From a virus: a stretch of DNA of 64,000 bases. The DNA is taken from positions 2,689 through 66,688 of IMG/VR virus record IMGVR_UViG_3300021605_000004. One strand, 5' to 3'. Every line of letters starts with the position of its first letter. The stretch's first letter is position 1. Below the pieces are notes generated by a model, which was not told the origin of the DNA, searched no databases, and saw only the letters and a list, made by a program, of their open reading frames with translations. Of this stretch, positions 10,218 to 49,262 are shown in pieces. A program made the translations under genes and the position numbers.

Positions 10218-10646
10218 TTATCTGTTAAGGAATATTAAACATAGTATTGCCGCTATCGGGACTAAACCCTGAATTATCCAGTAAATATATATGTTGCTTA
10301 ACGCTTTGTCAATCATAGAGGATGTGCCGGTAGAAACTGAGCCTTTGTAATACCATGGCAGGCTTCGTGACAGGTTCAGGATGGTGTTCCAACCGGTCCA
10401 GGCAAGGAACACGAACACGAACACCAACCATAGCTTACTCCACTGTAGCGGCCACAGGTAAATAAATGAGATCGGGAACACGGCAAACCTGAGTATCGTC
10501 GTCCATGTGTGACGGAACTGGTCCCACTTCTTCGCTCTTGGCATGTCGCCAAGTGCCAGTTTATCCTTCATGGCCAGGACTGAACCCTCCAGGATTGACA
10601 AATACAACAAGAGGATAACCGCCGTAACTACATATAACGTCGTCAT
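10218..10646 (-). CDS. Multi-pass membrane protein
   Basis: About four hydrophobic segments. Confidence 0.6.
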   Translation of the reverse strand: MTTLYVVTAVILLLYLSILEGSVLAMKDKLALGDMPRAKKWDQFRHTWTTILRFAVFPISFIYLWPLQWSKLWLVFVFVFLAWTGWNTILNLSRSLPWYYKGSVSTGTSSMIDKALSNIYIYWIIQGLVPIAAILCLIFLNR

Positions 10647-10891
10647 TTGGCTGGCTTTTTAGGTGTCTGTTCGTCCTTCAGTATAGCCACCATTTGTATC
10701 GCTCCTTCAAGCGTTTGAAGTTGTTTCTGGCACTGCTGAAGTTGCTTTGTTAACGTGTCGGCTTTCTGTGCTACTTTGTTGTAATTGTCGATTAAGCCTT
10801 TGAGCTTTGAATTGAGATAGTTCGTGTCGGCTTTCTGAGCGTTACAGAGTGTAACGGTAAAGACGAATAGGATAATGATTGCTTTTTTCAT
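10643..10891 (-). CDS. Small coiled-coil protein with signal peptide
   Basis: MKKAIIILFVFTVTLCNA|QK. Confidence 0.6.
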   Translation of the reverse strand: MKKAIIILFVFTVTLCNAQKADTNYLNSKLKGLIDNYNKVAQKADTLTKQLQQCQKQLQTLEGAIQMVAILKDEQTPKKPAK

Positions 10892-10915
10892 ATGGTTTTG
10901 TTTTATGGTTTATAA

Positions 10916-13900
10916 TTAAAATGCCTCATCTATTGCATATACAATTTCTATTATCATGTGACCGTTTGAATCACTCATGCCATTTTTAATCTTAATCTGA
11001 CTTGTACCCACCTGTCCTATCAAATCAAGATACTTGTCAACATCACCCAATATAACATCAGAAGTGCAGTCAGACAGCAGGGTTATTTTCCCATATTGGT
11101 CAAAGCGAAAACGAGCAAATGTACCTCCCTCCCCCTCAGCAGGACTAAACATTGAAATAGTTCCCCATCCATGCGCCCAAGGGAAGAAAGTAATCGAAGC
11201 ACCATAAGCAAGATAAATATTGGAATGATATACCTTAACCCCTTTCCATGTTGAAATAGAATCTCTGGATTCAATGGTTCTGTTTACCCGTAGTGAATCA
11301 GAAATAATTACAGGCTTGGTTGCTCTTTGTATCGCCTTGCCCCCTGAATACATCCATGGAAATTTAGTTGAATCAGAAGCATTGTAAGCAGTAAACCACT
11401 CCATCACTTTATCTCCAACAGGAGTTTTCATCACAAGACATTGCCCTGCTGTTCCTGCTGAAGAAGGAAGGGTGTATGCTGTTGCTCCTACGGTTACCGC
11501 CCCCCCAAACGTGCCATTCCCCGAAGCATCCACACCGAACCTCTGTGTTAATGTAGCGGTTGCTCCCGCTGAACCTGCGGGGGCCGTATGCCAAAGTAAT
11601 CCATTTGCGTTTATCTGAATCATTGACGATATTCCTGCGTTTGTTGCTCTGTATTTGTAAGTTGTTCCGTTGTAATACAGGTTACTGCCGATTGTCTGAG
11701 TGCCTACGGCGTGGCTCTGCAATTCCAGCGCACCGGCTACGATGCTGGAATTGGTAGTCGATCCCGGAGTTGTTAAATATGCAGCAGTAGGTGAGGTTGT
11801 TCCTATGCCTACTGAACCTTTCAATAAAGTAGTAGTGACATTATCATTGCCTAATACTACTTGATTACTCTGTAATACTTTAGCATTATATCCTATTGCT
11901 GTTCCATTGGTTAATACTGATTCATTTTGCTTACTGGCATAATTACCTAACAAGGTCATGTAGGTATCACTGACTGATTTCTCTGCTGTATTCTCTGCTC
12001 CAATACCTGAATAGAATCCTGAGAATAGGTTATTGACACCATCTACATTGTAGTAGCCAGCTTGCAGACCATTGAAGGTGTTGTTGCTGCCTGTGGTGTT
12101 GGAGACGCCAGCTCGATAACCATTGAAGGTGTTGGAGAAGCCTGTGGTGTTGGAGTAGCCAGCTTGATAACCATTGAAGGTGTTGGAGAAGCCTGTGGTG
12201 TTGGAGTAGCCAGCTTGATAACCATTGAAGGTGTTGGAACTTCCTGTGGTGTTGGAGTAGCCAGCTTGATAACCATTGAAGGTGTTGAAGTAGCCTGTGG
12301 TGTTGGAGAAGCCAGCATCCATACCATTGAAGGTGTTGTAGTAGCCTGTGGTGTTGGAGACGCCAGCATACATACCATTGAAGGTGTTGTAGTAGCCTGT
12401 GGTGTTGTTGTAGCCAGCATACATACCATTGAAGGTGTTGTAGCTGCCTGTGGTGTTGGAGAAGCCAGCTTGATAACCATTGAAGGTGTTGAAGTAGCCT
12501 GTGGTGTTGGAGAAGCCAGCTCGATAACCATTGAAGGTGTTGTAACTTCCTTTATAAGTTGCTCCTACTTCACCTATTGAACTCTGTCCACCACCACCAA
12601 TGAATAAGTTGTATCCATCTGAGTTGGCTCCTTTATATCCACTTATTTCTACCGCCGTTCCGTCATTAATTATCTGCTTTCTCAGATATGTATTCTGCTG
12701 CGCCAAGTAAGCAATACCCGAACTATCTGCGATGTATTTTGGGTCAGATTCTGTAGTCAGATAGTCTTTGGATTGGTATTTCGTTTGGATTTTGGTAAGA
12801 GTGTCAGGCCACATCACAGCCTTGGTTAATGAATCCTGCAACACATCAAGCAATGCCCGATTACTATGAGTTATTGCTGTTTTTTCAGCATCCGTGACGT
12901 ACCGCTTGTTTATGTAATCAGGTACGTGGTCAGTCGTTAGTGACACCACTCCCTGCTGATTGTTCACTGACACCACGTTATCCGTACCGACTGAACGCTC
13001 CCAGTTCGTGCCGTTATGGATGCAGAAGTCACCGGCGTAAAAGATAATGTCGCCAGATCCTAAATTAACCGTGTCCCCCACTGATACTACATATACCCAT
13101 CCATTTATTCCAGTATTGTCTGCTAATGTAGGTGTGTTTGTATGAGCATCCCATATCCCCTTATAAATCATAAGGACAGCCGGAAGTTGAGAATAGGGGA
13201 CTTTACCACCATTATCTAACGTAGCTACCCCGTTATTAGCTGCACGTTGTATTAATGGTATATACGTAGAGGTTGCTCTTGTCTGACCTAAGAGAACTGA
13301 TGTGGTATCTCCCCTTGCAAGATAATCGTGACTTGCCCTTGTTCTTGAAAGTAATACGTTTGCTGTATCAGATCTACGATATCGATTATTAAGGGTATCT
13401 TGTAATGAAGGATAAAATGTAGAAATAGTTGGTTTATCAGTAAGGGAATTATACGACTTTTCATCCAGTGTCGATAACGAGTCGTGATTATTCAGATTGC
13501 GCTTTAACGCGAGCCGACTGTTCAGGTAGGTTAATGTAATAGCGTTTCTGACCGTGTTACTGTCAGATTTCTGAAATGATCCTGAGTCTGTCGATGCAAT
13601 AGTCCACGTCCTGTCGTGTTTGAGGTTCTGTGTCACCCCGTTAATTGTCAGTTCCGTTACAGCATACGCAAAGGTGCTGTCCGATACACTTGACGGAGTG
13701 CCGATGACCTTGTACCATAAACTGTCAAGGACAGTCTGCATGGACTGTCCTATCTGAGTGGCATGGGTTAATGCAAGCAGCGTTGAGTCGGTGCTTATCC
13801 GTATCAACTGCTTTGGATAATACTTCTCCTTGAATAATGACGATGCTGAGTCCATCCTTACGATAGTCTCTTTTACCTGTGCGCCTGCCGATACTGAAAC

Positions 13901-13933
13901 CAGTACCAGCAGTGCAATCAAAAGTTTCTTCAT
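10916..13933 (-). CDS. Trimeric fibre/adhesin-like protein with signal peptide and 17-aa repeats
   Basis: MKKLLIALLVLVSVSAGA|Q; ANNGVATLDNGGKVP, VVSVNNQQGVVSL, TAIGYNAKV..NQVVLGN, GSVGIGTTSP motifs. Confidence 0.75.
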   Translation of the reverse strand: MKKLLIALLVLVSVSAGAQVKETIVRMDSASSLFKEKYYPKQLIRISTDSTLLALTHATQIGQSMQTVLDSLWYKVIGTPSSVSDSTFAYAVTELTINGVTQNLKHDRTWTIASTDSGSFQKSDSNTVRNAITLTYLNSRLALKRNLNNHDSLSTLDEKSYNSLTDKPTISTFYPSLQDTLNNRYRRSDTANVLLSRTRASHDYLARGDTTSVLLGQTRATSTYIPLIQRAANNGVATLDNGGKVPYSQLPAVLMIYKGIWDAHTNTPTLADNTGINGWVYVVSVGDTVNLGSGDIIFYAGDFCIHNGTNWERSVGTDNVVSVNNQQGVVSLTTDHVPDYINKRYVTDAEKTAITHSNRALLDVLQDSLTKAVMWPDTLTKIQTKYQSKDYLTTESDPKYIADSSGIAYLAQQNTYLRKQIINDGTAVEISGYKGANSDGYNLFIGGGGQSSIGEVGATYKGSYNTFNGYRAGFSNTTGYFNTFNGYQAGFSNTTGSYNTFNGMYAGYNNTTGYYNTFNGMYAGVSNTTGYYNTFNGMDAGFSNTTGYFNTFNGYQAGYSNTTGSSNTFNGYQAGYSNTTGFSNTFNGYQAGYSNTTGFSNTFNGYRAGVSNTTGSNNTFNGLQAGYYNVDGVNNLFSGFYSGIGAENTAEKSVSDTYMTLLGNYASKQNESVLTNGTAIGYNAKVLQSNQVVLGNDNVTTTLLKGSVGIGTTSPTAAYLTTPGSTTNSSIVAGALELQSHAVGTQTIGSNLYYNGTTYKYRATNAGISSMIQINANGLLWHTAPAGSAGATATLTQRFGVDASGNGTFGGAVTVGATAYTLPSSAGTAGQCLVMKTPVGDKVMEWFTAYNASDSTKFPWMYSGGKAIQRATKPVIISDSLRVNRTIESRDSISTWKGVKVYHSNIYLAYGASITFFPWAHGWGTISMFSPAEGEGGTFARFRFDQYGKITLLSDCTSDVILGDVDKYLDLIGQVGTSQIKIKNGMSDSNGHMIIEIVYAIDEAF
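12050..12551 (-). repeat. Coding tandem repeat, about 10 x 51 bp (NTFNGxxAGxxNTTGxx)
   Basis: ACCATTGAAGGTGTT recurs at 12068, 12119, ... 12527 with exact 51-bp period. Confidence 0.97.
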
Positions 13934-13935
13934 AT

Positions 13936-15852
13936 TTAGTCTACGATTAACAGTACCTGTCCGGCGCTTAATCCCGGTGCGTAAGTGAACACATAACCAC
14001 TGCGAGTAACGACCAACTGACTCTGCGGCACGTTATCAATCAAAGGAATGTACATGTCGTTGGGGACGAACTCTGTAACAGTGAAGGCCGTCTGTCCTTC
14101 TGTTGCCGTGAAAGCCTGTGATACAAGGCCGCGTCCTGCTCCGGAAGGTGATTTGGCCGGGATTAAGGTGGTCTGCCTGAGATGTAGCGTCACTGAGTAA
14201 CCGTCACACATGATGTCACTGGCCGAAGCAACAGAATTGGTGCCTTGGAGGATAACTGAACCATCCATGTTCATATCATACCCATTAAGCATCACAACAG
14301 GCCCAATCACGTCTGCCGGTAGTCCACCGCGAACGAGTGAACATTCAAGTTTCTGCTGTGTGTCGTTGATACGGGTAGCTTTCAAAACAATCCGTACACG
14401 ATTATTGTCGGCATTCACCAGGTCGTCAGTGAAATAGTCCAGTACGGTTGTGCCACAGAACAGCACCTTCAGCCTCTTGCCGTTGGCATTAGCGGCCAGT
14501 TTCGCATCCCATACAAACTCCATAAAGTCACCGGCGTTCTCAAAGTATGAGTTGTTGATCTGAAAGTTGTAACAAATTGTAGTGGCATCGGTATTGCCCG
14601 ATGTGGAGTATTCTAAAATGTCATTTACCAGCACCTGAACGTCACCTGCTCCGTCGGCTCCGGGCGAACCGGCTGTGCCCTTATACAAGCCTTTATCAAC
14701 CCAGGATCCGCTTACCTTGTACCATATGTGTCCTGAAGGTGTCTGAAAGCAAACATCTCCGTCGTGTCCGTCATTGTCCGTCGGATCGGTAGTCGTAAAG
14801 AATACCTGGAACTCGGAAGGAGTTGTGCCGCCACCTGCAACGATAGCACCCCAAGGAACGATAGGAACGCTTACCTCGTCATTGTTGACGGTGCAGTTGC
14901 AGTTCTCTCCGGCCAGGATAGTCTGTAACGCCAGTACGTCGTTCTCTGTCGATACGCCACAACGTTCATCCCATAACAGCATGTCAAACATGGCCGCGGC
15001 CTCAAGCACTTTATCCCGGTTGGCCTCCTTGTATGAGAAGTTACTTGTCAGTGATGTTCTCCAGCGGGTAAGCATGTTGCGGTAGCACTCAGCAAGGGCG
15101 CAAATGGTAGCGTCGCACTGAGCATAAATATTATCGTCACCATAAACAATGTCAGTGATCTTCACGGCCGGTTGGGTTGCGCCATAAGCTGCCACCACAT
15201 CCCAAACCAGTGTTGTAACGATATTGGCCTGCCATGTCCTTGTCCAGATACGTGAACCGGCTGTAACGCCACCACCAATGGTTCGCAGATTTGTTATGCC
15301 ATAATCAGTCCATGTCAGCGGCGATATGGTACAGCCTGAACCGGCCGGTTTTGTCAGCGTATGAACGCGGGTGGTAGTTGTTGGGATAAACTGAACACCG
15401 CCGATAATGAGGTTGTAATCCGTAACGTCCTCAGATGTCAACTCCGATGTGCTGCAAAGTACCGCCATGTCAATAGCGACGGCAGGCGCGGTATAATCCA
15501 GTGTGTATGTCCTTACGGTTGGTGTAGGAACAACATCTTCTGTGGCCGTAGTGCCATTATATGTGGCATACTCAAACTGGTACTCGCCAAGATATTCCGT
15601 CGGCAGTACGATTCCTGATTTGGTCCATACTGCGGTTGCCGAACCATGGATATCGGGCGAAGTCCATGCGGACGGTGCTGTTCCCCAGTCATCGTGAACG
15701 TAAAGGATATCTCCGCTTAATTTATGCGTTATTTTTATCAGTCCTACGGTATGAGTGCCTCTGGCAGTGGACGTATCTGTAAAGGTTAAAGTACCTGTTG
15801 CGATGTCAAATGTGATCAGGAAACTCGGAACGAAAGCTGATGCTGTTGTCAT
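13936..15852 (-). CDS. Virion structural protein, Thr/Cys-rich; start probably MTTASAF
   Basis: Between capsid and fibre genes; short Gly-X-Y run, GD..FQT..GHIWYKVSGSW motif; promoter-like TATCTTTG at 15868-15875. Confidence 0.6.
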   Translation of the reverse strand: MTTASAFVPSFLITFDIATGTLTFTDTSTARGTHTVGLIKITHKLSGDILYVHDDWGTAPSAWTSPDIHGSATAVWTKSGIVLPTEYLGEYQFEYATYNGTTATEDVVPTPTVRTYTLDYTAPAVAIDMAVLCSTSELTSEDVTDYNLIIGGVQFIPTTTTRVHTLTKPAGSGCTISPLTWTDYGITNLRTIGGGVTAGSRIWTRTWQANIVTTLVWDVVAAYGATQPAVKITDIVYGDDNIYAQCDATICALAECYRNMLTRWRTSLTSNFSYKEANRDKVLEAAAMFDMLLWDERCGVSTENDVLALQTILAGENCNCTVNNDEVSVPIVPWGAIVAGGGTTPSEFQVFFTTTDPTDNDGHDGDVCFQTPSGHIWYKVSGSWVDKGLYKGTAGSPGADGAGDVQVLVNDILEYSTSGNTDATTICYNFQINNSYFENAGDFMEFVWDAKLAANANGKRLKVLFCGTTVLDYFTDDLVNADNNRVRIVLKATRINDTQQKLECSLVRGGLPADVIGPVVMLNGYDMNMDGSVILQGTNSVASASDIMCDGYSVTLHLRQTTLIPAKSPSGAGRGLVSQAFTATEGQTAFTVTEFVPNDMYIPLIDNVPQSQLVVTRSGYVFTYAPGLSAGQVLLIVD

Positions 15853-15965
15853 GTGTATATGTTTTTCCAAAGATAACTATTGGAATCACAAATATCAAGA
15901 CATTAACCAAAGATGCCGGTTGTATAGACCGGCATCAGATGGAGAGGAGAGAATGGAAACAGAAA

Positions 15966-17138: not shown

Positions 17139-17170
17139 TTTTTTGCTTGTTTAGGGTTTGAATAAAAGAA

Positions 17171-17200
17171 GTCAGGACTGAGATTGCGCCCAGTCCTGAC
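17171..17200 (-). terminator. Terminator after the major capsid gene
   Basis: GTCAGGACTG-N10-CAGTCCTGAC followed by TTCTTTT on the minus strand. Confidence 0.75.
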
Positions 17201-17209
17201 TAATTAAAG

Positions 17210-18661: not shown

Positions 18662-18684
18662 TGTTAATTTGAATTAGTGTTAGT

Positions 18685-19884: not shown

Positions 19885-19957
19885 TGCTTGCTTTGTTTTA
19901 GTTTTCGCTGTGCAAGATATTATTGTAGAATCAAATAATCAACGTATGGAAAAGTGA

Positions 19958-19989
19958 AAGGCCCGTAGGTATAAACCTGACGAGCCTTT
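19958..19989 (-). terminator. Hairpin/terminator between portal region and scaffold
   Basis: AAGGCCCGTAGGT-ATAA-ACCTGACGAGCCTT imperfect stem. Confidence 0.45.
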
Positions 19990-25200: not shown

Positions 25201-25844
25201 ACCTTTGGCGGACGGCCTCTGCGCGGTTTGTTACCGTAATACGGATCGTTGATATTTAACTGCTTCTTCTCTATCGCCTCGGCCATATGTTCGGGGCGCA
25301 AATTCAACTTCATGCGCTCTGCCAGGACGTACAAAGCACTGCGGACGTTTATGGTTTCTTCGTCCGTAAAGATTTTACGTTCCAGCTCCTGTATCTGCTT
25401 CCTTGCCACTTCAGCATTGGCCATGGCTTCTTTCTTGCCCTTACTGTCTGCGGCGCCCATGGCCACCTGAAATTCTGAGAAGAATATCTCACGGTACATG
25501 ACAAAGGCCGGGAGGTCTGCGATATTGAATTTGGTTACGAAGGCGACTATGGCCGCATTGTACTGGTCATTGTGGCCGATAATACAGTCCTCTACCCATT
25601 CATCGAACGTTCCCTGTGCGTTCTTCTTGAATCCGGCCAGTAGTGCTGCTTCATGCTTGCGTCGGTTAAAATCGTTCGGAAAGAGTTTTAACAGGTCCGC
25701 GTGAGGGTCATAGGTATAGATTGTGTAAGCAATCAGTTTGTCCTTATCCGGACACTCAAACCGAAACTCAGGGATATCGGCTTCCACCTTGGATGGTGTA
25801 GACGGATCGGTAGGGTTGTATAGATAGCTTGAAAATTTCGCCAT
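25197..25844 (-). CDS. Hypothetical protein, terminase-small-subunit position
   Basis: Overlaps the TerL start; C-terminal AT-hook-like RRGRPPK. Confidence 0.5.
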   Translation of the reverse strand: MAKFSSYLYNPTDPSTPSKVEADIPEFRFECPDKDKLIAYTIYTYDPHADLLKLFPNDFNRRKHEAALLAGFKKNAQGTFDEWVEDCIIGHNDQYNAAIVAFVTKFNIADLPAFVMYREIFFSEFQVAMGAADSKGKKEAMANAEVARKQIQELERKIFTDEETINVRSALYVLAERMKLNLRPEHMAEAIEKKQLNINDPYYGNKPRRGRPPKV

Positions 25845-29242: not shown

Positions 29243-29578
29243 CTATGATATCATCGAAAGTGCTTGTACTGCCAATACTTTAGCCTCAACCCTGAAAGCC
29301 ATGAATTCAACCATTTCGGTTTCATGGGCCGGGGTATCGTTGCCGTTGTGGATGATCGCTAATTCATCGTCAGATGAATACTTGCTTCGGATAATGGCTG
29401 AAACGATTTCGCCTTTGGTTGGCTGGTCTGATACCTTCACCTGGTCGTATTCAAAGGCTGTCTTTTCAGGTTGCCCCGGCATCACGGGAACATTTACAAC
29501 CTGTTCGTTGAAGTTGATCAATCCACCGCCCTGAAGTTTCACGGCGAGAGGTAATTTATTGTCTGATTGTGTTTTCAT
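29243..29578 (-). CDS. Hypothetical protein coupled to the DGR RT; not Avd-like
   Basis: TAATG overlap with the RT stop; acidic, IVSAIIRSKYSSDDELAII. Confidence 0.65.
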   Translation of the reverse strand: MKTQSDNKLPLAVKLQGGGLINFNEQVVNVPVMPGQPEKTAFEYDQVKVSDQPTKGEIVSAIIRSKYSSDDELAIIHNGNDTPAHETEMVEFMAFRVEAKVLAVQALSMIS

Positions 29579-30564
29579 TATGCTGCTATTTTAAGTTCAA
29601 ATAATGGTAAATACTTATTCCATAAAATCTTGCTGTCGGACACTTTAACCCATCCGTAATAACTCATGATCACAGACCGCTTGTTCCTGATCCGGTCAAT
29701 CATGGCAACCCTCTTTTTGAATGCTTTTGCGATTGACTTTCTCATGTATGTCTTGCAATGATCGAATTTGAAGCCGAGAAAATCAACCCGTCGTTTGCGG
29801 ACAGGAAATACCTGATAATTCTTTTTGAGAAAAAGCCTGAGTTTGCTTTCAAGGTAATACTCGATCTTGACCAACAAATACTGCAAATAATCTTTATCCT
29901 GATGAAGAATAACCATGTCGTCACAGTAGCGAAAGAAATTTTTGATCTTCATTTTTTCCTTTAACCAATGATCTGCATAGGCTAAGTAAAGGTTTCCGAA
30001 ATACTGAGACAGGTAATTTCCGATAGGAATTCCTTTTACTGAATCTATGATTTCATCCAAAAGCCAAAGACAATCCTTGCATTTGATTTTCTTGCGAATG
30101 ATCTGTTTCAGAATCGCATTGTTGACAGAAGGGTAAAATTTCCTTACGTCGATTTTGAGACAAAACATTTTCCTGCTGTTACGCAAAACGTTTTCTACTC
30201 TCACCTTACAGGAATGAACCCCCCGGCCTTTGATCGACTGATACGTGTCACGAATGAGAATTTTCTTCCAAATCGGTTCTAAGATTTGCAGGATTGCATG
30301 ATGCAGGATTCTGTCAGGGAAATAGGGGAGTTTTGAGATTTCACGTTCTTTCCCTCTTTCGATTTTTTTATAAGTTTTGTACGCTGAGTTTTTGAATGTT
30401 TTTTGTAATAACATTCGTTGCAATCTTTGTAAATAGTAATCCTCATGCCGATCAACTTGCTTCACTTCGCTATAATGGGTCTTCTTCCTGCGGGCTTTCT
30501 GATGCGCAAGTTTCAGATTATTATAGTCTGCGATCTTTTCAAATAAATTACCTACTCTTTTCAT
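29578..30564 (-). CDS. DGR reverse transcriptase
   Basis: GKEREI, PDRILHHAI, KGRGVH, KIDVRKFYPS, GIPIGNYLSQ (DGR-type SQ), YCDD, DFLGF; 328 aa. Confidence 0.96.
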   Translation of the reverse strand: MKRVGNLFEKIADYNNLKLAHQKARRKKTHYSEVKQVDRHEDYYLQRLQRMLLQKTFKNSAYKTYKKIERGKEREISKLPYFPDRILHHAILQILEPIWKKILIRDTYQSIKGRGVHSCKVRVENVLRNSRKMFCLKIDVRKFYPSVNNAILKQIIRKKIKCKDCLWLLDEIIDSVKGIPIGNYLSQYFGNLYLAYADHWLKEKMKIKNFFRYCDDMVILHQDKDYLQYLLVKIEYYLESKLRLFLKKNYQVFPVRKRRVDFLGFKFDHCKTYMRKSIAKAFKKRVAMIDRIRNKRSVIMSYYGWVKVSDSKILWNKYLPLFELKIAA

Positions 30565-30664: not shown

Positions 30665-30784
30665 AGAAGTACAACTGAGTGCCAATGTTCTGATTCGCAT
30701 TGCCGGAATCGTTATTCAGATTCCAATTGAAAGCCCCGGCATTCGTACCATTGTTCGCATTGCCGCCGAAAAACGCCACTCTTC
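30665..30784 (-). repeat. DGR template repeat (TR), 120 bp
   Basis: 11 AAY codons, 32 adenines; 21 mismatches to VR, 20 of them at TR adenines. Confidence 0.97.
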
Positions 30785-30857: not shown

Positions 30858-32342
30858 TTAGAAGGACAACCGAGCGCCAATGGTCCGATCCGCCATGCCG
30901 GAACCGCCACTCAGATACCAATTGAAAGCCCCGGCACTCGTACCACCGTACGCAGCGCCGCCGAAAAACGCCACCCTCCAACCCGAAGCCTGATAATAGT
31001 AGTCCGATGGGTAAGTAGAGGACGAACCTCCAACCGATGCAGGGAGTATAACCCTTGAAGAGTTTACAAGGGTTTTCTGCCAACCGTCAGAAGCGGCAAG
31101 GGTTACGCCAAGATAGTCGTAACCTTCGCTTGTATTATCAGCCCAAACTGCTGAATTGTTACTTACATAAGGGATATTATTGTTAATGTTGATACCGTCA
31201 ACGATCTTGTAAATATGTCCCCAAAAGTTTGAAATTCCCCTGTACTTTGAATATCCTGTTGCTGCGACCGTTGCACTTGATGTACTTGCGGCGGCGGCAT
31301 TCTGCCCGGTTGCATTGCCTATGCTGTTGCCTAATCCCGTGGCCACAATTGGGTAATAATTGTTATATGCAGCCCAATCAGAGACATTAGTAATGCCCGA
31401 AATGATTAACTGAGAATTAAGCGTACCGTATTCGACAATGAAAAGTATCTGAATGGCGTTCACTAAATCGTAATCCATTTGCCGCCATCCGATTCCCCTT
31501 TTAGCTGCCATAAGCCTGCCATTTGCCCTGGTAAAGTTTGTGACGGGCCTGAAGCCAGACACACTTGAAAGCTTATCATTAGTGGGAGTAATTGAAACCC
31601 CGGCCTTATAATCCCTGTATGCACTATCAGTAGTGGCATCCCATAATACAGCTTCATACGCCCCTATGTAACGGTAATCCTTGTACGCCCCATCTTTGAT
31701 AAATGCTGGATGCCGGGTGTAACCTGGTATGCTGTCAAGAGAGATGTTCCAAATATGGTAATTCCCGTTTTTTTGGTACTGGTAATAAAACTTGGGAATC
31801 TGTACCATTACCTGTCCGTCTGCCCCGGTAAGTGTTGAAGCTGCCCCGTTTTCCTTGTACGCCCAATCCGTTGCACTCAGGTAGTATTGAACCGCCCCGG
31901 CATCAGATAGAACACAGCCGCGCATTTTACTCTGAACAGGTAAAAGCAAGTCACCGGGAGAAGCACCCAACGTTTGACCGGCCAATGTTCCCTGTCTGAC
32001 ATAGGTATCAGTTACCTCATTCCATGCAAGGCCCTGAAAGTTGGTGTTACTTGAAGCTGAAAGGTTGATCCAGGAAGTGCCGTTGTAGTAATTTAACGTG
32101 TGATCTGTCTTGGCATAGAGCATGCCCTCCTTCGGTGATGATGGGGCCGACGCAGATGGAATTAATTTGATGGTGTCTGTTGATATTTTAGGGATTATTG
32201 CTGTTCCCGTAAAAGTCGGTGATGCAATCGGAGCAAATTTTGCATTTGCCTGAGTCTTAGAATATGGAATAGTTTTATAATCAGTCTGTGCTGATACGTA
32301 AAATGAAAGTATAGCGAATATTAGGATAAGATACTTTTTCAT
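30858..32342 (-). CDS. DGR target: CLec-fold (Mtd/FGE-like) binding protein with signal peptide
   Basis: MKKYLILIFAILSFYVSA|Q; GQVMVQIPKFY, YIGAYEA, YRGISNFWG, C-terminal FGG...GAF...IGARL holding the VR. Confidence 0.88.
   Translation of the reverse strand: MKKYLILIFAILSFYVSAQTDYKTIPYSKTQANAKFAPIASPTFTGTAIIPKISTDTIKLIPSASAPSSPKEGMLYAKTDHTLNYYNGTSWINLSASSNTNFQGLAWNEVTDTYVRQGTLAGQTLGASPGDLLLPVQSKMRGCVLSDAGAVQYYLSATDWAYKENGAASTLTGADGQVMVQIPKFYYQYQKNGNYHIWNISLDSIPGYTRHPAFIKDGAYKDYRYIGAYEAVLWDATTDSAYRDYKAGVSITPTNDKLSSVSGFRPVTNFTRANGRLMAAKRGIGWRQMDYDLVNAIQILFIVEYGTLNSQLIISGITNVSDWAAYNNYYPIVATGLGNSIGNATGQNAAAASTSSATVAATGYSKYRGISNFWGHIYKIVDGININNNIPYVSNNSAVWADNTSEGYDYLGVTLAASDGWQKTLVNSSRVILPASVGGSSSTYPSDYYYQASGWRVAFFGGAAYGGTSAGAFNWYLSGGSGMADRTIGARLSF
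30860..30979 (-). repeat. DGR variable repeat (VR) at the 3' end of the target gene
   Basis: Ungapped 120-bp alignment to the TR, offset 195 bp. Confidence 0.97.
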
Positions 32343-32344
32343 AA

Positions 32345-41669: not shown

Positions 41670-41672
41670 GTG

Positions 41673-42332: not shown

Positions 42333-42334
42333 GA

Positions 42335-43015
42335 TTAATATTGTTTGCCCGTTAAAATATGTGTGTAGTACTCCTGGAATATCTCGTCAGCATCGAACTG
42401 ATACCCGTGAAATACGTTCAAAGCCTTGATGTAGTCCCGGTCGAAAATGGCCTTATCGGTAACCGTGAATGCCTTGTCGCGCTTTACCCACTCATTCTCA
42501 GCATAGGCTTGCACGACGGCCCTTGCCATTCTCGGAATATAGGTAACACCGTCCATGCTGACTCCGGTAGGAGTGTAGTTCAGTGTCACTTCGGCGACAC
42601 TTATCGGAGCGTCGATGATCACGCGCCTGTTCTCGGTATCCAGTGAGTAATATGCTTTGAACGTGGACTGCGTTACCGGATACACCACCGTATCGCGGGT
42701 TGATACACCGCAGTCGTCCGTGGACAATACCGGCATATCTGACCTTGGAGTGAACGCAAAGAACCGGCCATCGTGAACGATACCGATACTGACGAACTTT
42801 AAGAAATCGTTGGGCAGTACAACCACGCGCATCTCAGTCTGAATAGGCAATATAACCGGTTTAGTCGCCGGTAGGCTTTGCAGCCTGAGTCCTTCGTAGC
42901 CTTTAATGGCGAAATTGAGCAGTCGCATGAATTGGCCAGGGTCAGATGAATCTCCCCAAGCCAACATTATGTCGTCAACAATTTGTTTGAATGAAACCCA
43001 TCCCGATACGTTCAT
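42335..43015 (-). CDS. Tail ring/adaptor protein
   Basis: VVLPNDFLKFVSIG motif typical of tail tubular/ring proteins. Confidence 0.6.
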   Translation of the reverse strand: MNVSGWVSFKQIVDDIMLAWGDSSDPGQFMRLLNFAIKGYEGLRLQSLPATKPVILPIQTEMRVVVLPNDFLKFVSIGIVHDGRFFAFTPRSDMPVLSTDDCGVSTRDTVVYPVTQSTFKAYYSLDTENRRVIIDAPISVAEVTLNYTPTGVSMDGVTYIPRMARAVVQAYAENEWVKRDKAFTVTDKAIFDRDYIKALNVFHGYQFDADEIFQEYYTHILTGKQY

Positions 43016-46000: not shown

Positions 46001-46932
46001 CCAGTATTAACCCAAACATTAATCACATTGTCAATTCGAATATCTTCATTGTAAGCGCCATTAAGAAGTTCAGGACGTGATGGTAATGGAACAATACTTG
46101 GGGGACTCCAAACTGATTTCTCGTTGTCATCGTACACATAGCGGTACGAAAACTGAAACAGTTTATTGTGCAATTTGTTCACAACCCTGTTCGCATCATC
46201 ATCATAACTCGGCCCCGGTGCATAGGCCGGTGGCCACTTGATTCGGTCCAGTATATGCCATGTAAGTGCTGAATACACTCCGACGTTGGCAGTCTCCCAA
46301 TGGATATCAACCGTCGTTCCGGTTAATGGATAGGCCGACGTGACACTCAGGCAACGGTAAGACTTGCCTAAATACGAAACCACCATACCGGGTTGATATG
46401 TATTGGAACCATTGAACGGATTTGTCATACCCGCAGCCTTGACCATGTTCACCTTGCGCGGCGGGTTGTAATCCACGAACGGCGTCCCCTCGTATCCATC
46501 AGTGAAGTACAACAGATCGTCGATTGTGGAGGCTGAGACGCGGTAATTATACTGGAAATTGAGGAGGTACTGACTATAAAGGATCCACTCCAGTTTTTTA
46601 TTGGACGTGAACATTCTTAAAATGCAATGTTTCCGGTCGGCTTTGGCACGATCAGTCGTTACGTCCGCCAGGAAATAGATTATCGTCCCGGCATTAATGT
46701 CTTTGGTAGTTCCGACGCATTTAAAATCGCCAACCGGCATTGTAAAGCCGGTATTGATCGTCATGGCCATCACCGAATCAAAGCCACGCATGTTCACAAG
46801 GCGCCCGGATGAGTTCTCCTCGATCATGTTCCGTACCATGCCCACCTCGTTAGGCGCAAGCATTTCAGGTGAACTGTCCAAGTTCATCCTTACATCCTTG
46901 AAACCACGAACGTCAGAAAACTTTTGCATCAA
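43012..46932 (-). CDS. Tail stabilisation/muzzle protein (P22 gp10/crAss-like)
   Basis: MNLDSSP, DDLLYFTDG..NPPRKVN, FQFSYRYVYDDNEKSVWSP, NRIVDGNY, FKSG..HPFGIVYKD. Confidence 0.75.
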   Translation of the reverse strand: MMQKFSDVRGFKDVRMNLDSSPEMLAPNEVGMVRNMIEENSSGRLVNMRGFDSVMAMTINTGFTMPVGDFKCVGTTKDINAGTIIYFLADVTTDRAKADRKHCILRMFTSNKKLEWILYSQYLLNFQYNYRVSASTIDDLLYFTDGYEGTPFVDYNPPRKVNMVKAAGMTNPFNGSNTYQPGMVVSYLGKSYRCLSVTSAYPLTGTTVDIHWETANVGVYSALTWHILDRIKWPPAYAPGPSYDDDANRVVNKLHNKLFQFSYRYVYDDNEKSVWSPPSIVPLPSRPELLNGAYNEDIRIDNVINVWVNTGVSEVKTIEISVRVLNTGNWQLIKRIYKYDSAGERETGMLDDINVVYLFYDDDIAEGLTQTECNRPYDAVPQISAHNEIIEKNRIVDGNYIEGYDNTNIDVALSVASQQVTVGKIIKSIDNTAVVSQQFGCSQGDQFYGGSINLLTPTSGVDFWEPGFTYVIQISCLPGRYNNPEPATWHPITYPPADEIAAQVFGSFWDEPIHGYATVVASSQMSLKDFIEEACAQLRVRTTYGRLITLDAWTFKGFGGVSGLYDAVHGSPGTPPVDVNSIGFIIEVTNSNGNPWGTCVNCSKVDVEILKLSNNSVLHTFKSGSHHPFGIVYKDRANRKSTVNTSTESIAYVPSQVESQTEHRILQNTIKWEINHLPPIWATHYQWVYARNSSISYYIYASIVNISNTAYTPNVSALHYTSININEYIVQTKHELTKFNLSPYDFVPGDRIRFILNRDGSDYKTFPFSIDTEILGVFWPDGATGYQQDTSLETDNFIRDGNGNKIRSINTATFIIGKINFSGLGISKDNTIVEIYRPNNNTERLVYYDFGPPLPILNPHTDNRFHSFQCTPATSETNAPVTNSWNRDQTQQVSARGTFTYGDAYVGYRQMHNCFPVERNSYSDFYNSDAINIGLYNIEFRDARRTKYVSKLLYSGLFIQDTRINNLSHVDSSDSVTLAEKYGPINHIEEVGFTLKILQTSKQSSLYIGRAGVTQPSSESKEILSSTKDVLGTLIVHDSDFGTVHPGSVVKNETRAYFFDFNSHAICRDDGNGIQNLCVDYNINSFMHEACTAFGSADNVDVIASFDQENSLVIWTFTDKTTASNSFTLAFRDTGGSKQDGFVAFFDFMPDEYGFSKKVITSFSGNELWVHNSNTAPRSNFYGVQYPYWVTVVLNKLLLIFKRWLTIFVGSSKKFSAPVAGDISIPATDNNPIGMMSLLKAGAFTSVNGKFVAEFGKNMTTRSLTPAISDLVDGDDLQGQSLSVKLQGEETTEHKLLSVEVTGVAL

Positions 46933-47495: not shown

Positions 47496-48364
47496 TTCGA
47501 CATCTCCATTGCGTACTGGGCGATTTCTTTTTCTGAGAGATTTATTCCAATCTTACTCAGGATAAAATACACAAACCGATATAAGTATTGAGACTCCCAC
47601 TCAAGTTCGACGGTTAACGACCAATATAAAGTACCTGTCATCTCCGGCTTTATCACATTTTCCTTTAATAGTAGACTACCAAATGCACCAACTCTTTGAT
47701 ATAGATTGTACACTACTGTTGTGGCGGAATCTATGGAAGGTGGATCGGTAGGGTCTGGACCCGGAGTGATCTTAGGATATGGTTTGTCGCTAACATATGT
47801 TCCCGTTGGCATGTAAATGATAATGCTTGGACTGAGTGCATCCTGGCAGTAATCATAATATGGCGTAGTCGGATTGCTGAAATAGTCCAGTCTTACAGTA
47901 AGGACATCGTATGGTACGACGTGCAGGCCGTCAGAACTTACTCTCCCGAATGGAGTCACCTTGGGCCGGGTAAACACATCGCGCTGCTTCTTGACGAACA
48001 GTTCATCACTGACGATATCCACCTTGCGGATGGCCGGAACCTGAGACAGCGGATCGGAAATATTGTCCGATGTGGTAAAGGCAACGATGTAACGGCGATA
48101 GTCCGACGGCACCACGCCAAGTCCGTCCGCATCTATGTCGATATCCTCCGTTTTCTTGAATGGGATCAGTGGCGTGGTGGACAGAACCTTATTTAACAAG
48201 GCCGGGTCCGCCGAAGCCGCAATGATCTCGTTCATAAGCGCCTGATACCACTCATCCTGAACCATCGGAAGCAGTAAATTAAGACGAGAGGGCGGTATCG
48301 CTCCGCCACTCTCGTATCGTCCTGCGATGTAACTCGCCAGGTTATATATCTGGAATAGTGTCAC
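47492..48364 (-). CDS. Tail ring protein (putative)
   Basis: LIPFKK, VPSDY, LDYFSNP; resembles 49259-49861. Confidence 0.55.
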   Translation of the reverse strand: MTLFQIYNLASYIAGRYESGGAIPPSRLNLLLPMVQDEWYQALMNEIIAASADPALLNKVLSTTPLIPFKKTEDIDIDADGLGVVPSDYRRYIVAFTTSDNISDPLSQVPAIRKVDIVSDELFVKKQRDVFTRPKVTPFGRVSSDGLHVVPYDVLTVRLDYFSNPTTPYYDYCQDALSPSIIIYMPTGTYVSDKPYPKITPGPDPTDPPSIDSATTVVYNLYQRVGAFGSLLLKENVIKPEMTGTLYWSLTVELEWESQYLYRFVYFILSKIGINLSEKEIAQYAMEMSK

Positions 48365-48368
48365 CTGA

Positions 48369-49262
48369 CTACGGTACTACAACTAACGTTAAATTGCCTG
48401 ATGCGGTAACACGAAGCCTGTATTTGGTTCCGGCAGCACTGTAAAGAACAAGCCCCTGCAATGTATCGCTGATAACTACACGCTTTGCGCTGAGACTGTC
48501 TGCTGCAACCTTTCCGGTAGATGCGGTAAGTGGTATAGTCCCGACGAGAACCCTTGTAGTACCTGCGACGGTAGCCGATGCGATGGTGTCAGTGGCCCTC
48601 ACGCTATGCGCGAAGGATACGCTGTTTGCATTGCCGGTAGTCTTGGTAACGGTATTTGTGGTTCCAGGGAGAGTCAAAGTGGTTGCTACTGATGCGGCCG
48701 TACCGTAAAATTTTGGTGCGGTAAGCGAGTCAGTGACCACCAGTGAATGATTAATTGTGGTACTGTTGGCATTGGTAGCTGTCTTGGCCAGAGTGTTGCC
48801 GCCCGGTAGTGTAATGGTAGCACCGCTTACTGCCAGTGTTCCGGCAATAGCCGTGTTCCCTGTAGCTGCGGCGACGGTAAACTTGTTGTAAGATGTACCG
48901 AGTCCCACTGCCCCCGCGGCTCGTAACGCCCCAAGGAATGTTCCGGTACCGGTAACGTCGAGTGTTGTGCTGAATGTTCCGGACGAAGCGGTAACCACAC
49001 CGGCAACAACCGCCATATTAGCGACGTTGTAGCGGGTTGTAGAGGCTAAAAGGTACGTGCCATTGGCATTAGGCCCAACAGCAACCTTTGAACAATATAA
49101 AGTGCTGTCAGCTATAACGTAAAAAAAGTCATTGATCTTGACGAACTCGCCGAACGTAGTTGCCCTTGTCGGCAGGACGAATATCTGATGCTTTTTCGTC
49201 TGCTGTGCAAAAGCAGAGCAGGTAAGTAAAATGGCAATAGCCATCAAGATGATTTTTTTCAT
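48369..49262 (-). CDS. Thr/Ala-rich fibre-like protein with signal peptide; start revised to MKKIILM
   Basis: ATGA overlap with upstream stop; MKKIILMAIAILLTCSAFA|QQ; FTVAAATGNTAIAGTL and C-terminal GTKYRLRVTASGNL fibre motifs. Confidence 0.7.
   Translation of the reverse strand: MKKIILMAIAILLTCSAFAQQTKKHQIFVLPTRATTFGEFVKINDFFYVIADSTLYCSKVAVGPNANGTYLLASTTRYNVANMAVVAGVVTASSGTFSTTLDVTGTGTFLGALRAAGAVGLGTSYNKFTVAAATGNTAIAGTLAVSGATITLPGGNTLAKTATNANSTTINHSLVVTDSLTAPKFYGTAASVATTLTLPGTTNTVTKTTGNANSVSFAHSVRATDTIASATVAGTTRVLVGTIPLTASTGKVAADSLSAKRVVISDTLQGLVLYSAAGTKYRLRVTASGNLTLVVVP

What the first reader, a model, noticed from the sequence alone, without database searches (positions are those of the whole stretch)
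10643..49262. Four virion-region proteins, including the DGR target, carry Sec signal peptides with A|Q cleavage
Seen: MKKAIIILFVFTVTLCNA|Q (10891), MKKLLIALLVLVSVSAGA|Q (13933), MKKYLILIFAILSFYVSA|Q (32342) and MKKIILMAIAILLTCSAFA|Q (49262). Three of the four have fibre or receptor-binding-type bodies. Knowledge: tailed-phage fibres normally assemble in the cytoplasm with no signal peptide, and +1 Gln (pyroglutamate, the Q-rule) is typical of Bacteroidota SPI substrates. Inference: either fibres mature in the periplasm and join particles at lysis, or the prophage gives its host exported, diversifying adhesins. Either would be an unusual system.
Basis: partly seen in the sequence, partly recalled or inferred. 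Interest (0 to 1): 0.78.

Follow-up and report, generated by a model that had tools for sequence, protein, structure and literature searches.

The report
Phage fibre proteins carrying export signals
A freshwater Bacteroidota phage gives three tail-fibre-like proteins, one of them its hypervariable DGR target, the export signals normally found on host envelope proteins, which suggests that fibre proteins pass through the periplasm, something not described for tailed phages.

Summary
The four N-termini are in the sequence exactly as written. No signal-peptide predictor was on hand, so I used a crude screen of my own. It passed 10 of 541 ATG-started ORFs, and only these four have the MKK...A|Q form.

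The 82-aa protein lies in the lysis cassette and is ordinary.

The other three are fibre-like:
- P2, 1005 aa, has tail and tailspike domains.
- P3, 494 aa, is the target of an active DGR.
- P4, 297 aa, is a predicted intertwined homotrimer.

The signals are conserved as a feature:
- 34 of 38 P4 relatives in an exhaustive search have one.
- 30 of 37 relatives of the P2 N-terminus have one.
- 17 of the 21 closest P3 relatives have one.
- More distant P3 relatives, and those in cultured Bacteroidota phages, have ordinary fibre N-termini instead.

A second, independent mark of export turned up. The Bacteroidota O-glycosylation sequon D-[ST]-[AILMTV] is about 3-fold enriched in P2, in P4 and in their signal-bearing families. 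It is depleted in fibre relatives without a signal (observed/expected 0.51) and in 35 other proteins of this phage (0.63).

Export is well supported. Where the proteins end up is not settled. My odds are about 0.38 that they dock on particles at lysis and about 0.35 that they act in the cell envelope. I found no description of this in the papers searched.

The parts
10643..10891 (-). P1: 82-aa protein with a signal peptide (residues 1-18, CNA|Q) followed by a coiled coil. First gene of the lysis cassette. Its stop overlaps the start of the holin-like gene.
   Evidence: Translations. Only weak coiled-coil family matches.
10916..13933 (-). P2: 1005-aa fibre- or tailspike-like protein. Signal peptide at residues 1-18 (AGA|Q). 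Carries 14 O-glycosylation sequons.
   Evidence: phrog_13892 minor tail protein 4.9e-32; phrog_31460, 23837 and 4636. Sequons 14 against 4.2 expected. Relatives carry signals.
13709..13879 (-). Domain of about 55 aa that follows the signal in P2 (residues 19-75).
   Evidence: hhalign of the P4-family against the P2-family N-domains: Prob 95.6%, E 1.1e-8 over 55 columns; reversed control Prob 0.5%; only 27.9% when P2 and one relative alone serve as template.
30858..32342 (-). P3: 494-aa DGR variable protein. Signal peptide at residues 1-18 (VSA|Q), a short fibre-like linker, then a conserved body (residues about 103-494).
   Evidence: phrog_5302 tail protein 5.8e-89. 61% identical over residues 103-494 to P0008, a relative with no signal that carries PF18454 Mtd_N. 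Relatives in crAss-like phages are annotated tail or tail-collar fibre.
30860..30977 (-). Variable repeat (VR) at the C-terminus of P3.
   Evidence: 83% identical to the TR. Mismatches lie at TR adenines apart from one T>G. Contigs of three runs differ from the window at 30883-30908 while the flanks are identical.
30665..30782 (-). Template repeat (TR) of the DGR.
29578..30564 (-). DGR reverse transcriptase, 328 aa.
   Evidence: PF00078 RVT_1, 9.1e-14.
48369..49262 (-). P4: 297-aa fibre. Signal peptide at residues 1-19 (AFA|Q), N-domain, repeat shaft and a small C-terminal knob. Carries 5 sequons.
   Evidence: Relatives. Q at +1 is invariant in 20 of 20 aligned sequences. Homotrimer score 0.89 against a best control of 0.00. 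Sequons 5 against 1.0 expected.
49008..49205 (-). Domain that follows the signal in P4 (residues 20-85), a small beta domain.
   Evidence: AF2 pLDDT about 90 over residues 30-80. Lies outside the predicted trimer interface. Shared with the P2 family.
10218..10646 (-). Holin-like protein, 142 aa, with three hydrophobic segments.
   Evidence: Hydropathy scan. No family match.
9889..10212 (-). 107-aa protein with an N-terminal membrane segment and a coiled coil, resembling an i-spanin.
   Evidence: phrog_739 Rz-like spanin at E 0.0075, which is weak. Hydropathy scan.
9306..9827 (-). Endolysin.
   Evidence: Glyco_hydro_108 4.8e-20 and PG_binding_3 3.9e-11.
8490..9110 (-). 206-aa protein anchored in the envelope by an N-terminal hydrophobic segment. 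Rich in sequons.
   Evidence: Hydropathy scan. Sequons 4 against 0.7 expected; 4 of 2000 local shuffles reach this.
13936..15870 (-). 644-aa protein just upstream of P2, with no signal and no sequon. Possibly a fibre assembled in the cytoplasm.
   Evidence: 0 sequons against 3.9 expected. No family or PDB match. Only weak Atlas leads, all under 0.8.

Best explanation
P2, P3 and P4 are real Sec/signal-peptidase-I substrates of a Bacteroidota host. They are made together with the structural genes of a temperate, distantly crAss-like phage.

Proposed pathway:
1. They cross the inner membrane.
2. The signal is cut before an invariant Gln, which the host cyclises to pyroglutamate (the Q-rule).
3. 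P2 and P4 are then O-glycosylated at their many D-[ST]-[AILMTV] sequons by the host's general periplasmic glycosylation system.
4. They fold into trimeric fibres that leave a small N-terminal domain free.
5. When holin, endolysin and spanin-like proteins merge the compartments, the fibres dock through this shared N-domain onto finished particles. They serve as accessory receptor-binding fibres, and P3 is diversified by the DGR.

P1 is a separate matter. It is a periplasmic component of the lysis cassette, an antiholin-like or spanin-associated protein.

Shown here: the signal-type N-termini and their conservation; the sequon enrichment; the fibre homology; the shared N-domain; an active VR.

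Inferred: export, cleavage and glycosylation themselves. The docking step is the weakest link.

My odds are about 0.85 that the three proteins are exported. The confidence of 0.38 given for this explanation is for the whole chain, docking on particles included.
For: Signals are conserved as a feature:
- P4 residues 1-85 against 1.84 billion representative proteins gave 38 hits at E<=1e-3. 34 pass my signal screen and match from their residue 1-3, 2 begin inside the signal, and 2 are repeat artefacts.
- Q at +1 is invariant in 20 of 20 aligned P4 relatives.
- 30 of 37 relatives of the P2 N-terminus pass the screen. By eye, 5 of the other 7 are truncated or start too far upstream.
- 38 of the 120 best P3 relatives pass, 28 of them with Q at +1, and 17 of the closest 21 pass.

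Sequon D-[ST][AILMTV]:
- P2 has 14 against 4.2 expected (0 of 2000 local shuffles reach this). P4 has 5 against 1.07 (4 of 2000).
- P4 relatives with a signal: observed/expected (O/E) 3.44 (n=23). P4 relatives without one: 0.51 (n=21). P2 family: 2.90 (n=24).
- Near-miss motifs are not enriched: D[ST][other] 0.71 and 0.58, E[ST][set] 0.97 and 0.71.
- 35 other proteins of the phage: 29 against 46.0 expected.
- Positive control: the crAss001 lysis protein gp27 has 4 against 0.3, while its fibres gp22-26 are not enriched.
- The motif, and its restriction to non-cytoplasmic proteins, come from the abstract of PMC8550257 and passages of PMC12871550.

Pointing to the virion:
- The genes sit inside structural blocks and abut or overlap the upstream gene.
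- No Bacteroidota -7 motif lies within 200 nt upstream of P1, P2 or P4.
- The N-terminus is kept while the C-terminus is swapped. P2 against P0167 is 94.7% identical over residues 1-208 and then 44% in a different arrangement. P4 against P0124 is 76% identical over residues 1-147 and then has no match.
- P2 and P4 families share the N-domain. So do some P3 relatives: P0002 and P0006 hit P2-family N-domains at 1e-5 and 5e-9.
- P4 homotrimer score 0.89, best of 3 controls 0.00, runs agree in at least 93% of contacts, pLDDT at least 84. The mark was reached by 20 of 30 solved pairs and 1 of 23 single chains. The calibration used two copies and other alignments, so these counts hold only roughly here.
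- PF13884 (Peptidase_S74) occurs in 14 of 37 P2 relatives.
- The VR differs between samples while the flanks are identical.
Against: - I know of no tailed phage whose fibres are exported, and four literature searches found none.
- No trained signal-peptide predictor was available.
- Several signal-bearing P3 relatives are signal plus body only, with nothing to dock with.
- In IMG/VR loci L027, L035 and L036 the signal-bearing target sits in a run of 3-6 small signal or lipoprotein-like ORFs. That looks more like an envelope complex than a virion part.
- P3 and its family are not enriched in sequons: O/E 0.92-1.00, and 451 of 2000 shuffles reach the value for P3.
- The N-domain could not be tied to a known virion-docking domain. 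hhalign against Mtd_N-type N-termini gave Prob 0.6%, and 1 of 20 members hit Mtd_N at E 0.018.
- With P2 and one relative alone as template, the link between the P2 and P4 N-domains is weak (Prob 27.9%).
- Fibres would have to find particles only after lysis has begun.
- No virion or expression data exist for this phage.
Confidence: 0.38

Rival explanations
1. The three proteins are exported but never join particles. They act in the envelope of the infected or lysogenic cell. Possible roles are binding or degrading receptor polysaccharide as it is assembled on the periplasmic side (which would exclude superinfecting phages and protect progeny from debris), binding parts of incoming phages, or display on the cell surface by a host route not recognised here. 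In each case the DGR would diversify a host-side binder.
For: Export is supported as above.

Signal-plus-body-only relatives have no docking part.

Runs of small signal or lipoprotein-like ORFs lie around signal-bearing targets in L027, L035 and L036.

By my screen 13 of 80 IMG/VR loci have a signal-bearing target: 11 are clear, L040 and L043 were flagged at an internal Met, one locus had no readable frame, and L029 looks like one by eye.

Cellular DGR targets usually have a signal or membrane segment (passage of PMC8144416). Bacteroides DGRs that diversify periplasmic proteins are described (passage of bioRxiv 2024.11.15.621889).

One -7-like motif lies 141 nt upstream of P3.

The phage has an integrase.

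A 644-aa fibre-like protein without a signal could be the real virion fibre. This rests on weak leads only.
Against: The genes are embedded in structural operons and coupled to them.

Their makeup is that of trimeric phage fibres, with N-termini kept and C-termini swapped.

Plain SPI substrates without a lipobox or a T9SS C-terminal domain stay in the periplasm. No T9SS or lipoprotein family matched.

No ligand in the periplasm is known for such fibres.
Confidence: 0.35
2. The hydrophobic N-termini are not cleaved export signals in practice. The fibres assemble in the cytoplasm as usual, and the segment serves as a membrane tether or a buried helix, or is removed by a phage protease.
For: No cleavage data exist.

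Authors of a P. gingivalis phage survey suggested that predicted signals on capsid proteins are removed by prohead proteases (passage of PMC10367356).

AF2 models residues 2-18 of P4 as a helix.
Against: An invariant Q at +1, small residues at -3 and -1, and free drift of the hydrophobic core are what signal peptidase I and glutaminyl cyclase require. A buried helix would not need them.

Specific enrichment of a sequon that is used only outside the cytoplasm is hard to explain without export.
Confidence: 0.1
3. The pattern is chance or an annotation artefact: wrong start codons, or hydrophobic stretches with no function.
For: My signal screen is crude. P4 has a longer alternative ORF that runs to 49361.
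Against: Only 10 of 541 ORFs pass the screen, and only these four have the MKK...A|Q form.

Relatives from independent assemblies start at the same MKK and keep the feature.
Confidence: 0.03

Closest known systems
Bacteroidota Sec/SPI substrates that obey the Q-rule (PMC5837995 and PMC10653852, abstracts seen in the listing)
   Same: MKK n-region, hydrophobic core of 11-13 residues, small residues at -3 and -1, and Gln at +1 in all four proteins. Q at +1 is invariant in the P4 family.
   Different: These are phage-encoded proteins with fibre bodies lying in structural operons, not host envelope proteins. Neither cleavage nor pyroglutamate has been shown.
Phage DGR tail-fibre targets: BPP-1 Mtd (recalled), the tail or tail-collar fibre proteins of crAss-like phages, and the prophage DGR targets surveyed in PMC6199706
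   Same: A TR/VR pair with adenine-specific changes, an adjacent RT and a VR at the C-terminus. The body of P3 is homologous to crAss-like tail proteins and to the Yersinia phage fEV-1 tail fibre.
   Different: PMC6199706 states that phage DGR proteins lack detectable signal peptides or membrane segments (passage). P3 and 17 of its 21 closest relatives have a signal. The relatives in cr55_1, Versailles and P. gingivalis phage005b do not.
Exported cellular DGR targets: Legionella LdtA and Treponema TvpA (recalled), and the Bacteroides type V pilus tip adhesins and periplasmic variable proteins of bioRxiv 2024.11.15.621889
   Same: A DGR-diversified binding protein with an N-terminal export signal.
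   Different: Those are encoded by chromosomes or ICEs and mostly use lipoprotein signals and pilus assembly (passages). P3 has a plain SPI-type signal and a phage tail-protein body, and lies between a 2496-aa virion-block gene and the RT of a phage.
Signal-peptide proteins of unknown function that obey the Q-rule in P. gingivalis prophages (PMC10367356)
   Same: Proteins encoded by Bacteroidota phages that are predicted to use the host Sec/SPI route and expose Gln.
   Different: Passages only were read, and the supplements that list the genes were closed. The passages mention no fibre bodies, no DGR target and no glycosylation sequons. P4 has no tblastn match in 50,697 phage records.
Substrates of the Bacteroidota general O-glycosylation system (PMC12871550, PMC8550257)
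   Same: The sequon D-[ST]-[AILMTV] is enriched in P2, P4, their families and the 206-aa envelope protein. The system acts only on non-cytoplasmic proteins.
   Different: The word 'phage' occurs 0 times in the review. Glycosylation of these proteins is inferred from the sequence only.
Periplasmic lysis regulators and spanins (T4 RI antiholin with a cleavable signal: known to me from the title of a reference listed in PMC13577005, and from recall)
   Same: P1 is a small protein with a signal, encoded immediately upstream of a holin-like gene in a cassette that also holds an endolysin.
   Different: No homology to RI or to any spanin was found. Its role is inferred from position and makeup.

Membership tests
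Sec/SPI signal peptide, Bacteroidota Q-rule | Positively charged n-region, hydrophobic core of 7-15 residues, small residues at -3 and -1 | tested here: met
   Read directly from the translations. The crude screen passes all four.
Sec/SPI signal peptide, Bacteroidota Q-rule | Gln at +1 | tested here: met
   All four. Invariant in 20 of 20 P4 relatives. 28 of the 38 signal-bearing P3 relatives.
Sec/SPI signal peptide, Bacteroidota Q-rule | Accepted by a trained predictor (SignalP or LipoP) | not testable with these tools
Sec/SPI signal peptide, Bacteroidota Q-rule | Cleavage and N-terminal pyroglutamate in the mature protein | not testable with these tools
   Needs proteomics.
Lipoprotein (SPII) signal | Lipobox ending in Cys at +1 | tested here: inconclusive
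   P2 and P3 have no Cys near the cleavage site. P1 (TLC|N) and P4 (LTC|S) have a Cys with an atypical residue at -1. No predictor was available.
DGR variable protein | TR/VR pair that differs at TR adenines, with the VR at the 3' end of the target | tested here: met
   One non-adenine difference, T>G.
DGR variable protein | Adjacent reverse transcriptase | tested here: met
   RVT_1, 9.1e-14.
DGR variable protein | VR varies in natural populations | tested here: met
   Contigs of X3, X4 and X6 differ from the window at 30883-30908, and X4 has 0 differences over 30990-32424. This is contig-level evidence, and the studies may belong to one campaign.
DGR variable protein | C-type-lectin fold around the VR | tested here: inconclusive
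   The AF2 model of P3 is poor (mean pLDDT 42.3). No PDB sequence match.
Tailed-phage tail fibre / receptor-binding protein (virion part) | Homology to known tail proteins | tested here: met
   P3: phrog_5302 5.8e-89. P2: phrog_13892 4.9e-32. For P4 the only match is phrog_4527 at E 0.0073, which is weak.
Tailed-phage tail fibre / receptor-binding protein (virion part) | Trimeric fibre | tested here: met
   P4 only: score 0.89 against a best control of 0.00. This is a model, not a measurement.
Tailed-phage tail fibre / receptor-binding protein (virion part) | Present in purified particles | not testable with these tools
   No isolate and no proteome.
Tailed-phage tail fibre / receptor-binding protein (virion part) | Assembly in the cytoplasm (no export signal) | tested here: not met
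   All three carry signals. Comparison fibres do not.
Bacteroidota O-glycoprotein | D-[ST]-[AILMTV] sequons in a non-cytoplasmic protein | tested here: met
   Enriched in P2 and P4. P3 has 3 sequons, which is not an enrichment.
Bacteroidota O-glycoprotein | Glycan attached | not testable with these tools
   Needs glycoproteomics.
T9SS cargo | C-terminal sorting domain | tested here: not met
   No Por_Secre_tail or other CTD family in Pfam at E<=0.01 or in NCBIfam at E<=0.1. An unrecognised CTD cannot be excluded.
Spanin / antiholin (P1) | Homology to a known spanin or antiholin | tested here: not met
   No significant family match. Only position and makeup fit.

The most novel reading that the evidence does not exclude
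A lineage of Bacteroidota phages sends its tail fibres through the host's Sec pathway. In the periplasm the fibres are capped with pyroglutamate and coated with the host's own O-glycan. They attach to particles only when lysis merges the compartments. This would be the first case of periplasmic maturation of a tailed-phage virion part, and the first virion to wear a host-type glycan made by the Bacteroidota general glycosylation system. One such fibre would in addition be hypermutated by a DGR.
Probability: 0.3. Interest if true: 0.9.

Novelty: new variant of a known kind. Interest (0 to 1): 0.7.

Why it matters
Tail fibres of tailed phages are held to fold and assemble in the cytoplasm, and surveys have used the lack of a signal peptide to tell phage DGR targets from cellular ones.

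Here whole families of fibre-like phage proteins keep a host-type export signal. Two of them also carry a strong, specific excess of the host's glycosylation sequon.

If the proteins end up on particles, this changes how virion assembly, stability and host recognition are understood in a major phylum. It would also mean that host glycans decorate phage surfaces.

If they stay in the envelope, it shows that phages place trimeric, DGR-diversified binders in the periplasm of their hosts. That would be a new kind of lysogenic conversion or exclusion.

Either way it gives a simple sequence rule, signal plus sequon excess, for finding such proteins in metagenomes.

Tried and rejected
- The major capsid protein has no tblastn match in the 50,697 phage records. 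The terminase found no relative in viral contigs. The capsid protein found one, at 30% identity (L003), which has no signal-bearing fibre in the 21 kb held.
- P4 has no match in the phage records, in viral contigs or in genome contigs. The first alignment was too diverse for the tool, so I sent a closer one.
- Link between the N-domain and Mtd_N: not supported (hhalign Prob 0.6%; 1 of 20 members at E 0.018). Atlas hits were under 0.9 and are leads only.
- Fold search with the P4 model gave 0 matches at E<=0.001 in the PDB and 1 in BFVD, a collagen-like phage fibre. The short N-terminal matches to phage tail proteins there are leads only.
- The AF2 model of P3 was too poor (pLDDT 42.3) for a fold search.
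- PDB sequence searches with P2, P3, the 644-aa protein and profile A4 found nothing.
- No T9SS C-terminal domain and no lipoprotein family matched.
- The full Bacteroidota promoter motif gave 5 matches against 2.8 expected, which is not significant, and none lies upstream of the signal genes.
- No RNA holder was listed among the sequencing runs, so nothing can be said about expression.
- Literature searches for exported or glycosylated phage fibres found no description. Only open-access papers and bioRxiv preprints are covered, and supplements were closed. These include the gene lists of PMC10367356 and Additional file 10 of PMC6199706, which may bear on the claim.
- No docking test between an N-domain and a virion protein was run, because no partner could be named on evidence.
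Full report
**What is there**

All genes from 292 to 58679 run on the minus strand.
- P1, 10643-10891, 82 aa.
- P2, 10916-13933, 1005 aa.
- P3, 30858-32342, 494 aa.
- P4, 48369-49262, 297 aa.

Each has MKK, a hydrophobic core of 11-13 residues, small residues at -3 and -1, and Gln at +1. No signal-peptide predictor was available, so I wrote a crude screen. It passed 10 of 541 ATG-started ORFs of 60 aa or more in six frames, and only these four have MKK and Q at +1. The start of P2 lies 2 nt after the stop of the upstream gene, and so does that of P3. The start of P4 overlaps the upstream stop (ATGA). The longer ORF to 49361 is not used in relatives, which match from their residue 1-3.

**The element**

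The window is 64 kb of a single 66,688-bp contig that the tools treat as a virus record. It has no terminal repeat and no tRNA.

It encodes:
- a terminase (phrog_6681), a portal protein (phrog_6547) and a capsid protein (phrog_13704);
- two very large proteins, 1306 aa and 2496 aa;
- a tyrosine integrase (phrog_1, 2.9e-21) and a primase-helicase;
- a GH108 endolysin.

The capsid protein has no tblastn match in 50,697 phage records. The gene order recalls crAss001 only loosely. The runs that hold the phage are lake and freshwater metagenomes. Integration in a host genome is not shown.

**P1 is a lysis protein**

P1 (signal plus coiled coil) is followed in turn by:
- a holin-like protein with three hydrophobic segments, which its stop overlaps;
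- a 107-aa protein with an N-terminal membrane segment and a coiled coil (Rz-like at E 0.0075, weak);
- the endolysin;
- a 206-aa envelope-anchored protein.

Export of such a protein is ordinary. No homology to a known antiholin or spanin was found.

**The other three are fibre-like**

- P2 has minor-tail, tail and tailspike PHROG domains (4.9e-32 and weaker), and matches tail proteins of many phages over residues 219-716 only.
- P3 matches phrog_5302, tail protein, at 5.8e-89. Its residues from about 104 on are homologous to the tail or tail-collar fibre proteins of crAss-like phages and to the Yersinia phage fEV-1 tail fibre.
- P4 has only a weak family match. It consists of a small N-domain modelled with confidence (pLDDT about 90), repeat shaft sequence and a small knob. 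Three copies of the mature part are predicted to intertwine over residues about 89-285. The score is 0.89 and the best of 3 controls 0.00. The runs agree in at least 93% of contacts and pLDDT is at least 84. The mark was reached by 20 of 30 solved pairs and 1 of 23 single chains. The calibration used two copies and other alignments, so the counts hold only roughly. This is a model, not a measurement.

**The DGR**

The TR (30665-30782) and the VR (30860-30977, the last codons of P3) are 83% identical. Within the repeat, all differences but one lie at TR adenines. The RT lies next to them. Contigs of three runs differ from the window at 30883-30908, inside the VR, while kilobases of flank are identical. 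So the DGR appears to be active. This is contig-level evidence, and the studies may belong to one campaign.

**Are the signals conserved?**

- P4: an exhaustive phmmer search with residues 1-85 against 1.84 billion representatives gave 38 hits. 34 pass the screen and match from residue 1-3, 2 begin inside the signal, and 2 are repeat artefacts. In an alignment of 20 relatives, Q at +1 is invariant while the hydrophobic core drifts.
- P2: 30 of 37 relatives of the first 230 residues pass. By eye, 5 of the other 7 are truncated or start too far upstream, and 3 show no signal.
- P3: 38 of the 120 best relatives pass (28 with Q at +1). By eye, 2 more have a signal behind a start called too far upstream. 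17 of the closest 21 pass. The rest begin with fibre-type N-termini (three with PF18454 Mtd_N) or directly with the body. P3 is 61% identical over residues 103-494 to P0008, a relative with Mtd_N and no signal.
- In IMG/VR, my screen flagged 13 of 80 loci with a P3 relative. 11 are clear, 2 were flagged at an internal Met, and one locus had no readable frame. Only L007 and L008 are of the Q type.
- The relatives in cr55_1, Bacteroides phage Versailles and P. gingivalis phage005b have no signal. Nor do the crAss001 fibres gp22-26.

So the signal is a conserved, selected feature of particular fibre lineages, placed in front of a body that elsewhere serves without one.

**A shared domain behind the signal**

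The roughly 55 residues that follow the signal are related between the P4 and P2 families: hhalign Prob 95.6%, E 1.1e-8 over 55 columns, against Prob 0.5% for a reversed control. With P2 and one relative alone as template the figure is only 27.9%. Two P3 relatives (P0002 and P0006) carry N-domains like those of P2-family members (1e-5 and 5e-9).

The module evolves as fibre anchors do. P2 and P0167 are 94.7% identical over residues 1-208 and then diverge. P4 and P0124 are 76% identical over residues 1-147 and then unrelated. In the trimer model the N-domains lie outside the interface. A relation to Mtd_N is not supported.

**A second mark of export**

Bacteroidota O-glycosylate non-cytoplasmic proteins at D-[ST]-[AILMTV] (abstract of PMC8550257; passages of the review PMC12871550).

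Within this phage:
- P2 has 14 such sequons against 4.2 expected (0 of 2000 local shuffles reach this).
- P4 has 5 against 1.07 (4 of 2000).
- The 206-aa envelope protein has 4 against 0.71 (4 of 2000).
- P3 has 3 against 1.68 (451 of 2000).
- 35 other proteins of the phage together have 29 against 46.0.

Across families (observed/expected, O/E):
- P4 relatives with a signal 3.44 (n=23); fibre relatives without a signal 0.51 (n=21).
- P2 family 2.90 (n=24).
- P3 family 0.92-1.00.
- 28 further P4-family members from the exhaustive search: 116 against 42.4.

Near-miss motifs are not enriched: D[ST][other] 0.71 and 0.58, E[ST][set] 0.97 and 0.71, D[AG][set] 0.22 and 0.90. The reversed motif is mildly raised (1.87 and 1.31), and so is N[ST][set] in both P4 groups.

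As a control, the crAss001 lysis protein gp27 has 4 against 0.3, and its fibres are not enriched.

Relatives share ancestry, so family counts are not independent events. The figures for single proteins and the contrast with signal-less relatives still stand.

**What it most likely does**

I put export of P2, P3 and P4 at about 0.85. Their fate is open.

For docking on particles:
- They sit in structural operons and are coupled to them.
- No -7 promoter motif lies within 200 nt upstream of P1, P2 or P4, while such motifs lie upstream of the genes that precede P4 and P2. These are motif matches only.
- They have the makeup of fibres and the N-kept, C-swapped pattern.
- Fibres of one phage share the N-domain.

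Against it:
- I know of no precedent.
- Some relatives are signal plus body only.
- In L027, L035 and L036 the signal-bearing target lies in a run of 3-6 small signal or lipoprotein-like ORFs among portal and capsid genes.
- P3 is not rich in sequons.
- A 644-aa protein without a signal lies just upstream of P2 and may be the ordinary fibre (weak leads only).

My odds are about 0.38 for maturation in the periplasm followed by docking at lysis, 0.35 for a role in the envelope without joining particles, 0.10 for an uncleaved hydrophobic N-terminus, and 0.03 for an artefact.

**Comparison with what is known**

- The Q-rule is established for host proteins (abstracts in the listing).
- PMC6199706 states that phage DGR proteins lack signals and membrane segments (passage).
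- PMC8144416 reports signals or membrane segments mainly for cellular targets (passage).
- A Bacteroides study describes pilus-tip and periplasmic DGR targets on ICEs and chromosomes (passages).
- PMC10367356 notes five Q-rule signal proteins of unknown function in P. gingivalis prophages (passages).
- None of these passages, and none of the listings of four searches, describes fibre-like phage proteins with conserved SPI signals or a sequon excess. The review on Bacteroidota O-glycosylation does not contain the word 'phage'.
- The searches cover only open-access papers and preprints, and supplements were closed.

**Verdict**

I rate the finding a new variant of known kinds, with real interest.

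Noticed in passing
window 30883-30908: Contigs from three lake or freshwater runs differ from the window only inside the VR, while the flanks are identical. The DGR therefore appears active in natural populations.
   Followed up: partly
L027 8558-11488; L035 1411-6146; L036 3613-6077: In IMG/VR contigs whose signals are not of the Q type (so probably from other host phyla), the signal-bearing DGR-target relative lies in a run of 3-6 consecutive small ORFs with signal or lipoprotein-like N-termini, amid portal and capsid genes. This may be an exported complex.
   Followed up: no
L007 5702-8618: A contig with different head genes carries a 70%-identical signal-bearing target and an RT whose first 50 residues differ from the window's RT at three positions (by eye). 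The DGR cassette seems to move between phage types.
   Followed up: no
L086 (crAss001) 25093-25695: The crAss001 lysis regulatory protein gp27 has 4 O-glycosylation sequons against 0.3 expected. Envelope-exposed proteins of cultured Bacteroides phages may also be glycosylated.
   Followed up: partly
window 8490-9110: A 206-aa protein downstream of the endolysin has an N-terminal hydrophobic segment, a possible lipobox (QQGC) and a sequon excess. L007 has a similar protein, judged by eye, downstream of its endolysin. It is a candidate outer-membrane spanin-like component.
   Followed up: partly
window 51781-53339: By eye from their N-termini, a radical-SAM-like gene and a family-2 glycosyltransferase-like gene lie among DNA methyltransferase-like genes. 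They could serve DNA hypermodification or glycosylation. No family search was run on them.
   Followed up: no
window 32920-40410 and 43012-46932: Two giant proteins, 2496 and 1306 aa. The first has almost no family match (only phrog_24532 over residues 11-70). The second matches a virion structural PHROG (phrog_14478, 3.1e-49). The phage lineage itself is poorly represented in public phage records.
   Followed up: partly
G000:C1:1-1300 (upstream of the window): Two tandem paralogous minus-strand genes (204 and 223 aa) with near-identical N-termini overlie a long simple-repeat stretch.
   Followed up: no
window 13936-15870: A 644-aa protein with no signal has 0 sequons against 3.9 expected. With the other cytoplasmic proteins (O/E 0.63) this suggests that the sequon is avoided outside exported proteins.
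   Followed up: partly
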